Shown: positions 30,001 through 33,000 of the stretch, piece by piece | Numbering within the stretch: the first letter of the stretch is position 1 | Layout: each line of letters opens with the position of its first letter | IMG/VR virus record: IMGVR_UViG_2660238269_000009 | Reading direction: 5' to 3' (one strand) | Length of the DNA stretch: 60,442 bases | From: a virus | Lineage: Duplodnaviria > Heunggongvirae > Uroviricota > Caudoviricetes | Position numbers: made by a program

Positions 30001-33000
30001 GTCCGGGCAGGCCGTGCTCCACACAGGTATCATCCGCTGCCCTCATTATCATTATTCACCACCAGTCGGGGGGGTGGTGGCACCGCAAAACGGTTAGCCG
30101 CTTTTTTCGCCGCGTCACCTTTTGCCGATTTTTTACCGGCATCCCCTTTTTTGTGGTGCGTGAACTGTGCCAGCTTATAAGCCACATCCAGCGCCAGCCT
30201 GGGGTCGGTATTAATGTTCTCCACCAGAAGACGCCCCATCGCTTTCACCGGATCGGGAAGACCGTCATCCATATACTCAATACCAGGAGATATCACCACG
30301 GGCAGTGGCATCTCCGGATTTGTTTCGTCCGGCTGTGGTATTGCAGCCGCCTCACGGCGACGGGGTTTATCCTCCTGCTCTGATTTTTTCTGCCGGTAAA
30401 CAGGAACCTCATCCACCTCTACCGTCTCGCACTGCTTACGGGCTATAAACGCGAGCACCTCCGGATCTTTTGCCAGCTGCGAGCCTTTAACCCTGGCTGT
30501 CTTCGCCGAATAACCGGCGGCAATGGCTGACGCTGTTTTGTTTTTCCCGGACATGAGCGCCAGCGCAAATTTTCGTTTTTGCGTTGTCAGCACAGCCTCC
30601 TCCCGGGTCCAGAATGCACTCAGCCGGGTATGGTTCAGCCCATTTTTCCCGGCGTCTCATGCCGCAAATGTTAACTGCTGCCTGGTTAACATTTGCTGAA
30701 AAAGCCTGTTAACATTTTTTCCGCGCAACAAACTGAATGATAAAGATAAAAACTGCAAAAATGCCCGTGAAGCCAGTTAACATGTTAACTGACCTGAAAC
30801 GGGAATTTTTTCTCTGCGTGAGAGGGGGCGCGGTGTCCGGAGCGATCGTTTTTTACGCCGGATGATACCCCCCGGGTCGGGTTACAGTCCGATGATGTCG
30901 TCCGCTCTGCCACTACCTCCGGACACCTCCGGCAGTGTCGGGTCCGGCATACCACCCGCCGCTTCACGAGCAGACTTTTGTCGATGGCATTCGGTACAGA
31001 GCGTCCAGAGATTCGTCTCCTCATTACCACCACCGAACTGAAGTGCAATTCGGTGATCGAGTTCACTGTCACAGAGGTCAACCACACGACCACAGAGACA
31101 GCACTGCCCGGCATCCCTGAGCCAGATATGACGCTTGAGGGAAACACGTGCACTGCCACTGACACGACGCTGTTCACCCTTCAGAATATTCACCCGTCGG
31201 GTATTCAGTGTTTTGATTCTGCTCTGGAGTGTACGAAGCTCAGCCATGTAAAATCCCCGTCATAAGGCAATCAGTAAAGGAAATAAATATGTCATCGAAA
31301 AACCGGACCCGCAGAACCACAACCCGCAATATCCGTTTCCCCAATCACATGATTGAACAGATCAACATCGCCCTTGAGCATAAAGGGTCCGGTAACTTTT
31401 CAGCGTGGGTTATTGAAGCCTGCCGGAGAAGGCTGGCAACAGATGCAACGCACCTGCGCCCGGCCAGCATGACAAATAACGAGAAATGAACGTTCGGTTA
31501 CAGGAGCAGGTACCCACTGTCCTCCAACAATATTTCATCTTCATACCCGGCGGAACAAGACTTACCCAGCCGGGATGTACAGAATAACAACAGAGTGATA
31601 ATTAATTTCTGATGAAATAATCAGGGTGCAGAAGGACTAAAGATAAACGTTTTCTTCACGCCTTTACGCGGCCTGTCCTTCTCAAATCGCCATTTTGCCA
31701 TCGCCTTTACAACCTGCTCATCAAACAGATGGTGCGGCTCTGAACGGATAAACTCAATTCGGGTGACAGTACCATCAGCACCAATATCAAACTTCACATC
31801 AACCCGTCCCTTTATATAATTTGCCGCTGCATAGGCCGGATATTGTGGTAATGCCTTAACCAACTGTCGGGGCATATCTGTTTTATGTTGCGTACAGCCC
31901 ATAACCAGAGAAGACAACAAAATAATTAACGGAAGATTTCTTTTCATTTTCATTTTCATTCCCGGCACAGATAAGAATAAGTCTTATTCTAACAATGCCA
32001 CCCTGTCGGCCATCAATCCTCTGCTTAATGGCAACGACAATTATCCGACTTAAATCACAAATCAGACACATGACATAACAGGTCTTGCGAGGTAACACAT
32101 CGTCCGGTTTCTTCCACCATCGCACCGGACCAGCGACCATGAGGGGACAACGCCGCTCTCCGTTAACGCGGTAAACCCCGGTGTGTATCGTTTTTGATTA
32201 TCCCCGCACACTCGCGCAGAGGAGTCTCCCGGTCGGGCTGCGGTCTCTGTTAATGCAGGAATACGGCGACAATACCGCGCATGAATAATAAGGTCGCTCA
32301 ACACACTGGCTGTAATGCAGCGGATACCATGCGGCATTTAGCGGCATTCATCGTATACTCAACGGTTAGCTCTTCATTCGTGGCATTCACCTGAAAGGTC
32401 CGGGAGTGTAATTGCGTACATTTACCACTGAACGAACCTTCAACAAGAACACGACCACGCTGCAAAATACGGAACGGAATTGTTCCCTGAAAAGGCTTTA
32501 CGGTTACCAATAATTTCTGCATGCATTCTCCGAATAACAAAAATACTAGTTAATACACTGAGTGCGGATATATTCCTGAAGCATTCTCAATGCTGCCTGG
32601 TCGCTGATGATTCCGTCTCTGATACCGAGAACGTTTCGTCCAGCAACCGGAGAGAGTTCGACGGCGGCATCATTGCCCACGCCGGAGGTGCCGGTGGCTT
32701 CACGCACGGTACCGGGGCAGGTGGCGTTGATCCGCAGGCGCTTACGACCAGCGGCAACATCAGCACGCAGAGTTTCATTTTCAGCTCTCGCATCGGCTAA
32801 TTCCCTCGAGTATTTTGCATCGAGCGCAGCAACATCGCGCTGGCGCACCTGCATATCAGTAATGGTTGCGTTTGCCAGCTCCAGCTCTCTGGCTTTTTTA
32901 TCACGCTGCGCTTTGTAGGTGATGGCGTTATCGCGGTAATGATTCAGCCCCAGACTAAGCGCACCACAGACCACCAGCAGAATAACGGTAAACGCGGAAA

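What the first reader, a model, noticed from the sequence alone, without database searches (positions are those of the whole stretch)
31969..32297. GC-rich non-coding gap of about 330 bp between the TonB-like lipoprotein gene and the small gene after Rz
No convincing ORF lies here; the ORF-track entries are Arg/Cys-rich and look like translated GC-rich DNA. It could be a decayed gene or a structured RNA. I see no clear hairpin pattern.
Basis: seen in the sequence. Interest (0 to 1): 0.2.

Follow-up and report, generated by a model that had tools for sequence, protein, structure and literature searches.

The report
Conserved structured RNA after phage Rz
The "empty" gap is not a dead gene: most of it is a roughly 180-base non-coding element found just after the lysis genes in hundreds of lambda-like phages, including phage lambda itself, and its mutations preserve RNA hairpins on the late-transcript strand, which points to an undescribed structured RNA.

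Summary
The gap is real. NCBI's PGAP also calls no gene there in a 99.8% identical E. coli genome. It is not uniformly GC-rich and it is not one feature.

- **Left part (31969-32101, 40.6% GC):** the leader of the downstream TonB_C lipoprotein moron. It occurs only together with that gene.
- **Right part (32102-32283, 59.3% GC):** a sharply bounded element of about 180 nt. It matches about 400 phage records and about 1,900 E. coli genomes, including phage lambda (46866-47033) and K-12 DLP12 (579007-579175).

The element always lies downstream of Rz on the late-operon strand, whatever genes flank it and whatever packaging module follows. It shows no reading-frame conservation and no codon periodicity, and it has no Rfam match. 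A 91-nt irregular hairpin and a 3' hairpin are kept in 97.5% of pair cells. These include G-C to U-A and C-G to G-C swaps. Transitions in paired columns preserve pairing 23 times and break it 7 times (p=0.003), and only on the late-transcript strand.

Best reading: an undescribed cis-acting structured RNA at the 3' end of the lysis cassette. An mRNA processing or stability role is my inference and is not shown. Weak points are the narrow phylogeny, weak mutual-information covariation, and no direct evidence of a discrete RNA.

The parts
32102..32283 (-). Conserved element of about 180 nt, read on the minus (late-operon) strand. This is the core of the finding.
   Evidence: It has sharp homology boundaries in phages whose flanks differ. 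The covariance model R1 scores it at 211 bits, and it is the only hit in the 60-kb window. Homologues include lambda 46866-47033 and K-12 DLP12 579007-579175. There is no Rfam match.
32185..32275 (-). 5' domain: a 91-nt compound hairpin made of helices P1 to P4.
   Evidence: It is the minimum-free-energy fold in nearly all variants tested, with a mean z-score of -2.1 against dinucleotide shuffles. RNAalifold recovers it on this strand only.
32269..32275 (-). P1 5' arm, GUAUUGU. It pairs with 32185-32191 (ACGAUAC).
   Evidence: Seven pairs; 98.6-99.6% of cells are paired. U-A to U-G and C-G to U-G polymorphisms are tolerated.
32185..32191 (-). P1 3' arm, ACGAUAC.
32192..32198 (-). 3' strand of the internal loop, AUCAAAA. 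It is nearly invariant, whereas the opposite 5' loop strand (CGCCG, 32264-32268) varies.
   Evidence: Invariant columns in alignments A1 and A2. Lambda and DLP12 have AUUAAAA.
32253..32263 (-). P2 5' arm, UAUUCCUGCAU. It pairs with 32199-32209 (GUGCGGGGAUA).
   Evidence: Eleven pairs plus two further pairs (P2b). One C-G pair is swapped to G-C in the lambda/DLP12 lineage (7 sequences). There are several C-G to U-G polymorphisms.
32199..32209 (-). P2 3' arm, GUGCGGGGAUA.
32215..32242 (-). Apical part: P3 (CGCAG/CUGCG) and P4 (CCC/GGG), closed by a four-base loop (GACC in this window).
   Evidence: Other variants carry GACA, GAGA or UACG as the loop, which fit stable-tetraloop consensus patterns (GNRA and UNCG).
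32143..32179 (-). Variable central domain: P5 (GGG/CCC) enclosing hairpin P6 (CCGCG...CGCGG).
   Evidence: The P6 stem is replaced wholesale in other lineages: CUGUG/CGCAG in lambda-like Jouyvirus phages and UCUCAU/AUGGGA in 933W/Sakai-type phages. It is absent in some variants. The window copy has A at 32157 where all the other 79 variants that have this hairpin have C, which breaks one pair.
32102..32130 (-). 3' hairpin P7: GUCCGGU, a 15-nt loop with an invariant GGAAGAA, then ACCGGAC. The homology ends exactly at its 3' base.
   Evidence: Pair 171/193 (A2 columns) occurs as G-C in 45, U-A in 20 and G-U in 11 sequences. It is the one structure pair that ranks high by mutual information, 24th of 4465. 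No U-run follows, so it is not an intrinsic terminator.
32284..32297 (-). 14-nt junction between the stop codon of the 74-aa gene and the element.
   Evidence: Homology to phages that lack the 74-aa gene stops at 32282-32284.
31969..32101 (-). AT-rich leader of the TonB_C lipoprotein moron. It contains a candidate extended -10 promoter, TGTTAGAAT (plus-strand coordinates 31986-31994).
   Evidence: This stretch matches only 7 phage records, all of which carry the TonB-like gene. The leader, including TGTTAGAAT, is conserved in 9 variants. The promoter is my reading of the sequence; the generic promoter scan found nothing on this strand.
31621..31947 (-). Downstream flank: a TonB_C-domain lipoprotein gene (a moron).
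   Evidence: Pfam TonB_C, E=5e-15. PGAP calls it 'TonB family protein'.
32298..32522 (-). Upstream flank: a 74-aa hypothetical gene inserted between Rz and the element.
   Evidence: PGAP calls it a hypothetical protein. It is absent in VT2-Sakai and 1720a-02, where the element directly abuts the Rz stop codon. It matches phrog_2571.
32546..33019 (-). Rz spanin gene, with Rz1 embedded. This is the gene the element is linked to.
   Evidence: An Rz homologue lies upstream on the same strand in 230 of 255 instances. In a sample chosen by Rz homology, 65 of 78 loci carry the element.

Best explanation
The gap is non-coding and has two parts.

(1) 31969-32101 is the leader of the TonB_C lipoprotein moron and probably holds its promoter.

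(2) 32102-32283 is an undescribed, conserved element of about 180 nt. It belongs to the Q-dependent late operon of Escherichia lambdoid phages and acts as RNA on the late-transcript strand. When RNA polymerase reads out of the lysis cassette (S, R, Rz/Rz1), the transcript folds into:
- a 91-nt irregular hairpin: P1 (7 bp), an internal loop with an invariant A-rich 3' strand, P2 (11-13 bp), and an apical stem closed by a four-base loop;
- a variable middle hairpin;
- a 3' hairpin with an invariant GGAAGAA loop.

Shown: conservation, position, strand, non-coding character, and maintenance of base pairing.

Inferred: the role. I think the most likely role is a cis-acting mRNA processing or stability module that marks the 3' end of the lysis-gene segment. 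It would be either an endonuclease entry site (RNase III or RNase E type) or a 3'-exonuclease barrier, and it would uncouple the lifetime of the lysis mRNA from the downstream morphogenesis RNA. Morons such as bor, the 74-aa gene, KilA-N, the TonB-like gene and ybcV have inserted on either side of it without ever breaking it.
For: Distribution:
- About 400 phage records and 1,910 of 5,426 complete E. coli genomes match, with up to 9 copies per genome.
- Lambda and K-12 DLP12 each carry a copy.

Position:
- It is always downstream of Rz on the same strand: 230 of 255 instances, and 65 of 78 loci sampled by Rz homology alone, mostly starting 9-15 nt after the Rz stop codon.
- It occurs with HK97-like, 933W-like and lambda-like packaging modules.
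- It lies inside the late operon, in the order Q, tRNAs, holin, Rz, gap, terminase.

Non-coding character:
- Reading frames differ between lineages.
- There is no codon periodicity.
- ORF homologues have variable length and occur only in Escherichia/Shigella.

Structure:
- 97.5% of 3,959 pair cells are paired. Nine pairs show changes on both sides. None of 500 shuffles reached the observed percentage of paired cells, number of pairs or of cells changed on both sides, or covariation score. Structures with the partner slid by 1-3 columns pair at 35-64%.
- There are 383 G-U cells against 31 A-C cells, giving 97.5% paired on this strand against 88.6% on the other.
- Transitions in paired columns preserve pairing 23 times and break it 7 times (p=0.0026), while unpaired columns show no C/T versus A/G bias (22 versus 22).
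- RNAalifold gives -34.0 kcal/mol and 34 pairs on this strand, against -13.2 kcal/mol and 20 pairs on the other.
- The 5' domain has a mean z-score of -2.1.

Transcription:
- In K-12, a Rho termination region on the late-sense strand at 579345 has 218 reads in the 800-nt upstream window, which contains the element (PMC7815308, supplementary file 2).
Against: - The phylogenetic range is narrow (Escherichia/Shigella phages, 72-99% identity). Mutual-information covariation is dominated by linkage between lineages, and only one structure pair ranks high, 24th of 4465.
- The full 182-nt sequence folds no better than shuffled sequence (z = -0.07), and its minimum-free-energy fold is not the consensus.
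- There is no direct evidence of a discrete or processed RNA. K-12 Term-seq shows no 3' end at 5790xx-5791xx. The Hfq-crosslinking supplement for EHEC Sakai has no entry for the neighbouring genes. The lambda Hfq RIL-seq paper does not mention the region.
- The processing or stability role is inference only.
- Eleven of 78 Rz loci lack the element, so it is dispensable.
- The structure was derived from the same sequences it was tested on.
Confidence: 0.5

Rival explanations
1. Decay remnant of a protein-coding gene on the late strand.
For: ORFs over the element are annotated in some records: Stx1-phage ORF B85 (81 aa), VT2-Sakai orf48 (86 aa) and Sakai ECs_1218. They form PHROG 6954. A 91-aa ORF is open in this window.
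Against: The window and Sakai translations diverge through a frameshift in the middle of the element. None of the three late-strand frames shows codon periodicity. The 47 protein hits range from 50 to 147 aa, are often partial, have no Pfam match apart from the Rz1 domain in two ORFs that run on from the Rz1 frame, and are all from Escherichia/Shigella. Those Rz1 run-ons explain the 'Rz-like spanin' label. PGAP does not call a gene here. The boundaries are sharp and pairing is strand-specific.
Confidence: 0.06
2. A small protein (35-38 aa, VCIVFDYPRTL...) encoded on the opposite strand, in the same direction as bor.
For: The ORF is open across the element in 72 of 80 distinct variants. It is annotated as a hypothetical protein in some lambda-like phages.
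Against: It has a GTG start with no Shine-Dalgarno sequence. It is frameshifted to 22-23 aa in the 933W/Stx1 and JLK-2012 lineages, among others. The lambda and DLP12 copies are about 95-96% identical to the frameshifted Stx1-phage sequence over this stretch, although their ORFs were not translated here. First codon positions vary as much as third positions (0.329 versus 0.316), so there is no coding signature. There are many non-conservative replacements. It has no Pfam or PHROG match.
Confidence: 0.07
3. A DNA-level feature. It would be either a promoter or operator region for leftward moron genes (for example a bor promoter), or a conserved linker kept because it mediates homologous exchange between lysis and packaging modules.
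For: The HK630 and HK629 GenBank records annotate a leftward promoter (TGGACA, 15-bp spacer, TACAAT) inside the 5' part of the lambda-type element. The element's ends coincide with mosaic junctions. One contig has two copies flanking a gene related to the 74-aa gene, as expected from recombination between elements.
Against: The -10 hexamer is TACGGC in this window and in most variants. The element persists where there is no bor gene, as in this window, VT2-Sakai and 1720a-02. A DNA site does not explain the G-U versus A-C asymmetry, the compensatory swaps, or the strand-specific RNAalifold result. A promoter of about 30 bp does not explain 180 nt of conservation.
Confidence: 0.15
4. A trans-acting RNA, either a small RNA or a protein or RNA sponge, released from the late transcript by processing or made from an internal promoter.
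For: The element is structured and conserved, and is present in many copies per STEC genome. Prophage late regions are rich in small RNAs: STnc100, AgvB/AsxR, and lambda 6S/LPR2 (PMC4104026; bioRxiv 10.1101/2024.10.31.621285). GATAAT inside the element is a fair -10 hexamer.
Against: No conserved -35 or extended -10 accompanies GATAAT, and no terminator follows P7. K-12 Term-seq shows no 3' end here. Neither the EHEC Hfq supplement nor the lambda Hfq RIL-seq text lists it.
Confidence: 0.17

Closest known systems
RNase III processing or retroregulation hairpins of phage mRNAs (lambda sib, T7 R1.1-type sites)
   Same: It is a cis-acting irregular hairpin in an untranslated part of a phage polycistronic transcript. 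It has two helical segments separated by an internal loop, and it lies at the 3' side of a gene block.
   Different: There is no sequence homology. Cleavage has not been shown. The helices are 7 bp and 11-13 bp, interrupted by a 5x7-nt loop. A second conserved hairpin and a variable middle domain belong to the same unit.
HK022 put RNAs, and nut/boxB sites of lambdoid phages
   Same: They are structured RNA elements of lambdoid phage transcripts that act in cis on the transcribing or processing machinery and consist of small stem-loops.
   Different: Those elements lie just downstream of the early promoters, whereas this one lies at the distal end of the lysis cassette. There is no boxA/boxB or put consensus and no Rfam match.
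Late-region prophage small RNAs (lambda 6S RNA/LPR2, StxS, AgvB/AsxR, STnc100, PasD)
   Same: They are non-coding RNAs encoded in the Q-dependent late region of the same phages. STnc100 is present in this window at 37480-37692.
   Different: Those map next to the late promoter pR' and its terminator tR', or to the moron site upstream of the lysis genes. They have their own 3' terminators and many bind Hfq. This element lies downstream of Rz, has no terminator, and appears in none of those data sets.
PHROG 6954 ('Rz-like spanin'); RefSeq ORFs B85, orf48 and ECs_1218
   Same: They cover the same DNA: these ORFs are calls made over the element.
   Different: The protein reading does not hold up (frames are not conserved, there is no periodicity). 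The spanin label seems to come from read-through of the Rz1 frame in phages where the element abuts Rz.
Conserved boundary or 'linker' sequences of lambdoid mosaics (from my own knowledge of the Susskind-Botstein modular model and the HK620/HK97 comparisons)
   Same: It is a short conserved stretch between exchangeable modules, and its ends coincide with mosaic junctions.
   Different: Linkers need only DNA identity. Here the substitutions keep strand-specific base pairing.

Membership tests
Any Rfam 15 family | A covariance-model match at or near the family's gathering score | tested here: not met
   The whole window at gathering threshold gave STnc100, sok, DicF and 3 tRNAs, with nothing at 31969-32297. 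A permissive scan of 31400-32700 gave only chance hits of E=2-9 to eukaryotic families.
Protein-coding gene or pseudogene | A reading frame conserved among homologues | tested here: not met
   The window and VT2-Sakai/Stx1-phage translations switch frame within the element. ORF homologues range from 50 to 147 aa.
Protein-coding gene or pseudogene | Three-base periodicity of substitutions (third position most variable) | tested here: not met
   Late-strand frames give 0.360, 0.397 and 0.370. The opposite-strand ORF gives 0.329, 0.197 and 0.316 for codon positions 1, 2 and 3.
Protein-coding gene or pseudogene | Membership in a curated protein family | tested here: not met
   No Pfam hit for any overlapping ORF. 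The only match is PHROG 6954, which is built from the same ORF calls.
Structured non-coding RNA (generic) | Base pairs maintained across homologues, with compensatory changes | tested here: met
   97.5% of cells are paired, 9 pairs have changes on both sides, and 0 of 500 shuffles reached the observed percentage paired, both-sides-change counts or covariation score. However, only one pair is prominent by mutual information.
Structured non-coding RNA (generic) | Strand specificity (G-U tolerated, A-C avoided) | tested here: met
   383 G-U cells against 31 A-C cells. Pair-preserving versus pair-breaking transitions are 23 to 7, p=0.0026, with no bias in unpaired columns. RNAalifold gives -34.0 versus -13.2 kcal/mol on the two strands.
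Structured non-coding RNA (generic) | Folding energy below that of shuffled sequence | tested here: inconclusive
   The 5' domain has a mean z-score of -2.1, but the whole 182 nt has z = -0.07.
Intrinsic (Rho-independent) terminator | A GC-rich hairpin followed directly by a U-run | tested here: not met
   The scan found none in the gap. The sequence after P7 differs between contexts and is not consistently U-rich.
Hfq-dependent small RNA | Its own promoter, a terminator hairpin with a U-tail, and Hfq association | tested here: not met
   No promoter or terminator consensus. Not listed in the EHEC Hfq-crosslinking supplement and not mentioned in the lambda RIL-seq paper. These are literature checks, not experiments on this phage.
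RNase III processing site | Cleavage in vivo or in vitro at a stem of roughly two helical turns | not testable with these tools
   P1 plus P2 gives 18-20 bp interrupted by an internal loop. The supplement of the genome-wide RNase III map of K-12 is not held.
Sigma-70 promoter for leftward genes (the promoter annotated in HK630/HK629) | Conserved -35 and -10 hexamers at proper spacing | tested here: not met
   TGGACA, 15-bp spacer, TACAAT occurs only in lambda-type copies. The window has TACGGC at the -10 position. The scan found no promoter in the element.

The most novel reading that the evidence does not exclude
Phage lambda and hundreds of relatives carry an unrecognised functional RNA at the end of the lysis cassette. 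It would be either (a) a nuclease-processed module that sets the relative amounts or timing of lysis versus head and tail gene expression, or (b) a stable late RNA released from the transcript with a role in trans, such as a protein sponge or a decoy against host defence.
Probability: 0.3. Interest if true: 0.75.

Novelty: new variant of a known kind. Interest (0 to 1): 0.55.

Why it matters
Lambda is one of the best-studied genomes. A conserved structured RNA in its late operon, shared with the Shiga-toxin phages and with K-12 cryptic prophages, would be a new and directly testable player in late gene expression or lysis control. It also has practical value for annotation. It explains a recurrent "hypothetical protein" or "Rz-like spanin" call (PHROG 6954, ECs_1218) as probable ORF calling on non-coding DNA. 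It also gives a fixed landmark that flanks a hotspot for moron insertion (bor, the TonB-like gene, ybcV, KilA-N, the 74-aa gene).

Tried and rejected
- **Rfam:** gathering and permissive scans found nothing.
- **Generic promoter and terminator scan:** nothing in the gap on the late strand.
- **Whole-gap folding:** z = -1.5 on the late strand and -0.3 on the other, uninformative. Whole-element folding gave z of about 0.
- **Repeat search:** only short matches at chance level.
- **Self-similarity in the window:** the element is not a duplicated piece of Rz or of anything else there.
- **Rz1-like peptide:** one late-strand frame gives a short peptide faintly reminiscent of the Rz1 C-terminus. I did not pursue it, because reading frames are not conserved across variants.
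- **Sequence motifs read by eye:**
  - Chi-like GATGGTGG in the P7 loop is not conserved; other variants have GGGGGTGG or CTGACACGG.
  - The IHF consensus fails at the TTR positions.
  - The cosQ resemblance is a 7-mer only.
  - The ops-like CCGTAGC is partial.
  - GGA motifs that might bind CsrA are not conserved in the loops.
- **Mutual information with APC correction:** dominated by linked haplotypes and neighbouring columns, so it gives little independent support.
- **Literature:**
  - Papers on AgvB/AsxR, the Pas small RNAs and lambda PreS/LPR2 describe other loci.
  - K-12 Term-seq has no 3' end in the element.
  - The EHEC Hfq supplement has no entry.
  - The supplement of the K-12 RNase III map, the K-12 transcription-start map, the lambda ribosome-profiling paper and the Casjens-Hendrix review are not held.
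- **Scan of representative genomes with a 19-base core pattern:** apart from four contigs whose titles name other organisms (three carry an E. coli-type copy of the element, one is a chance match), only Escherichia contigs matched, so I could not broaden the phylogeny.
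Full report
**Setting.** The window is an E. coli lambdoid prophage of the STEC type, and its late operon runs on the minus strand. 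A 99.8% identical chromosome annotated by PGAP shows this gene order: Q antiterminator, three tRNAs, methyltransferases, a SASA esterase, holin, lysozyme, Rz ('lysis protein'), a 74-aa hypothetical gene, the gap, a TonB family protein, ynfO (opposite strand), an HNH endonuclease, the small and large terminase subunits, and the head and tail genes. The finding therefore lies inside the Q-dependent late transcription unit, between the lysis genes and the packaging genes.

**Checking the observation.** The gap exists. The 74-aa gene ends with its stop codon at 32298-32300. The TonB_C lipoprotein gene starts at 31968 (first GTG) or 31947 (PGAP's start), and PGAP calls nothing in between. The overlapping ORFs of 91, 85, 49 and 35 aa have no Pfam match. 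The description 'GC-rich' is only half right. The gap is 50.8% GC against 51.1% for the window. It splits into an AT-rich left part (31969-32101, 40.6%) and a GC-rich right part (32102-32283, 59.3%).

**The gap is a mosaic.**
- The left 133 nt matches only 7 phage records, all of which carry the TonB-like gene. Across the variants held it is almost invariant and contains TGTTAGAAT, a candidate extended -10 promoter about 40 nt upstream of the start codon. That promoter is my reading; the generic scan found nothing there.
- The right 182 nt matches about 400 phage records at 72-99% identity and 1,910 of 5,426 complete E. coli genomes, with up to 9 places per genome.
- Homology starts and stops at the same two bases whatever lies outside. 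Upstream neighbours are Rz itself (VT2-Sakai, 1720a-02), bor on the other strand (933W-type phages, lambda, DLP12), the 74-aa gene (this window) or a KilA-N gene (JLK-2012). Downstream neighbours are the TonB-like gene, ybcV, ynfO, Nu1 or a small terminase gene.
- Phage lambda carries a copy at 46866-47033, between bor and lambdap78. E. coli K-12 carries one in DLP12 at 579007-579175, between borD and ybcV.
- The K-12 cryptic prophage Qin keeps only a remnant resembling hairpin P7.

**Position is constant.**
- In 255 instances collected by sequence pattern, 230 have an Rz homologue upstream on the same strand within 3 kb. Most of the rest sit at contig ends.
- In a sample chosen only by Rz homology, 65 of 78 loci carry the element, always on the Rz strand and mostly starting 9-15 nt after the Rz stop codon. 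Eleven have an unrelated AT-rich sequence instead.
- The element occurs with HK97-like (this window), 933W-like and lambda-like packaging modules.
- The simplest history is an ancestral order of Rz, element, packaging genes, with morons inserted on either side.
- One contig has Rz, element, a gene related to the 74-aa gene, a second element, then Nu1. Recombination between elements would produce this.

**It is not a gene.**
- Late-strand translations of the window and of VT2-Sakai or the Stx1 phage agree for about 30 residues and then continue in different frames.
- Substitution entropy shows no three-base periodicity in any late-strand frame.
- A search of 5.8 billion proteins with the 91-aa ORF returned 47 hits. 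All are from Escherichia or Shigella, they range from 50 to 147 aa, many are partial, and the only Pfam domain on record is the Rz1 family domain in two ORFs that run on from the Rz1 frame.
- Those run-ons explain why PHROG 6954 and RefSeq name such ORFs 'Rz-like spanin'.
- The opposite strand has a 35-aa ORF (VCIVFDY...) that is open across the element in 72 of 80 variants. It starts with GTG and has no Shine-Dalgarno sequence. It is frameshifted in the 933W/Stx1 and JLK-2012 lineages, among others, and the lambda and DLP12 copies are about 95% identical to the frameshifted sequence there. Its first codon positions vary as much as its third positions.

**It looks like RNA on the late strand.** RNAalifold on 80 distinct copies predicts the following:
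- a long nested hairpin: P1 GUAUCGU/ACGAUAC; an internal loop with a nearly invariant AAUCAAAA 3' strand; P2 UAUUCCCGCAU/GUGCGGGAAUA; and P3/P4 closed by a four-base loop;
- a 3' hairpin P7, GUCCGGU...ACCGGAC, with an invariant GGAAGAA in its loop.

I added a middle hairpin (P6) and its closing stem (P5) by eye. P6 is replaced wholesale between lineages: CCGCG/CGCGG, CUGUG/CGCAG or UCUCAU/AUGGGA.

Support for this structure:
- With a covariance model built on it, 97 copies (94 distinct) were realigned. Of 3,959 pair cells, 97.5% are standard pairs and 9 pairs carry changes on both sides. No shuffle of 500 reached the observed percentage of paired cells, both-sides-change counts or covariation score. 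Structures with the partner slid by 1-3 columns pair at only 35-64%.
- Clear swaps are G-C to U-A by way of G-U in P7 (53, 21 and 11 sequences) and C-G to G-C in P2 of the lambda/DLP12 lineage.
- The signal is strand-specific. There are 383 G-U cells against 31 A-C cells, giving 97.5% paired in the late sense against 88.6% for the other strand.
- Among polymorphic transitions in paired columns, 23 keep pairing and 7 break it (p=0.0026). Unpaired columns show 22 C/T and 22 A/G polymorphisms, so there is no strand bias in mutation.
- The same RNAalifold procedure on the reverse complement gives -13.2 kcal/mol and 20 pairs and does not recover the long hairpin. The late strand gives -34.0 kcal/mol and 34 pairs.
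- The 91-nt 5' domain is the minimum-free-energy fold in nearly all variants, with a mean z-score of -2.1.

**Weak points.**
- The family is confined to Escherichia/Shigella phages.
- Mutual information is dominated by linked lineage differences, and only one structure pair ranks high, 24th of 4465.
- The whole 182 nt folds no better than shuffled sequence, and its own minimum-free-energy fold differs from the consensus.
- The structure was derived from the sequences it was tested on.
- Nothing shows a discrete RNA. K-12 Term-seq lists no 3' end in the element, although a Rho termination region on the same strand about 170 nt downstream (579345, with 218 reads in the upstream 800-nt window) indicates late-sense transcription through it (PMC7815308).
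- The EHEC Hfq-crosslinking supplement and the lambda Hfq RIL-seq paper do not list the region.
- Rfam 15 has no matching family.

**Mechanism.** Shown: a conserved, sharply bounded, non-coding unit linked to Rz, on the late strand, with base pairing under selection. Inferred: its function. It has no U-run after P7, no promoter consensus and no Hfq evidence. I therefore favour a cis-acting role in the late transcript over a classical small RNA or a terminator. The anatomy is two helical segments around an internal loop with an invariant A-rich strand, followed by a second hairpin at the exact 3' boundary. This most resembles phage mRNA processing and stability signals such as lambda sib and the T7 RNase III sites, which are nuclease entry sites or 3'-exonuclease barriers. 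Here such a signal would define the end of the lysis-gene message. I put about 0.5 on a functional cis-acting late-transcript RNA structure and much less on the specific nuclease story.

**Rival explanations.**
- A trans-acting RNA released from the late transcript (0.17).
- A DNA-level role (0.15). The HK630 and HK629 records annotate a leftward promoter in the lambda-type copy. Its -10 hexamer is not conserved, and the element persists where there is no bor gene.
- A small protein on the opposite strand (0.07).
- A decayed gene (0.06).

**Novelty and verdict.** I found no description of this element in Rfam or in the searchable literature. It is a new RNA family of a known general kind, a structured element within a phage operon transcript. 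It is of moderate to high interest because it sits in lambda itself and in the Shiga-toxin phages, and simple experiments can test it.

Noticed in passing
window 31621-31947 (-): The gene downstream of the gap encodes a 108-aa lipoprotein with a TonB C-terminal domain (Pfam TonB_C, E=5e-15). PHROGs files it under 'Rz-like spanin' (phrog_1267). That label looks like one given by position, not by function. The gene behaves as a moron with its own leader. In 81 of 255 instances of the element, a homologue of this gene is the nearest recognised gene downstream.
   Followed up: partly
window 32298-32522 (-): The 74-aa hypothetical gene between Rz and the element matches only positions 100-172 of the 291-position profile phrog_2571. 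It is absent in phages where the element abuts Rz. It could be a fragment or a single domain of a larger family.
   Followed up: no
window 32157: The window's copy has A where all the other 79 distinct variants that have this hairpin have C. This breaks the top pair of the middle hairpin P6. The 99.8% identical genome (locus L001) has C.
   Followed up: partly
window 37480-37692 (-), 47787-47962 (-), 55855-55906 (+), 41105-41353 (-): Rfam matches at gathering score elsewhere in the prophage: the small RNA STnc100, the sok antitoxin RNA, DicF, and three tRNAs downstream of Q.
   Followed up: no
L024 5054-5235 and 6004-6185: One viral contig has two copies of the element, 950 nt apart, flanking a distant relative of the 74-aa gene (31% identity). 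The second copy ends about 250 nt before Nu1.
   Followed up: partly
L138 7467-7497 (K-12 Qin, between ydfO and gnsB): Only a hairpin resembling P7 (GUCCGGC...GCCGGAC, with a U-A pair changed to C-G) matches the model, at E=0.005. It is possibly a remnant of the element in a prophage whose Rz is of a different type.
   Followed up: no
L137 about 4947-4964 (K-12, upstream of borD): A perfect direct repeat, TGTTTA-N5-TGTTTA, lies on the borD strand between borD and the element. From my own knowledge this is a PhoP box and fits the reported Mg2+/PhoP regulation of borD (vboR). It places one bor promoter outside the element.
   Followed up: no
L293, L296, L297 3477-3576: In three contigs the element is cut after about 100 nt and joined to a collagen-like repeat (tail-fibre-like) sequence. 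This is a rearranged copy.
   Followed up: no
L339 9476-9679 (Sakai Sp5, ECs_1218) and PHROG 6954: RefSeq still carries a 67-aa 'hypothetical protein' in the interval between bor and the terminase gene, where the element lies in this lineage. It is probably one of the ORF calls made over the element, but the element was not mapped in this locus. PHROG 6954, labelled 'Rz-like spanin', collects ORF calls of this kind, so both the annotation and the family are probably artefacts.
   Followed up: partly
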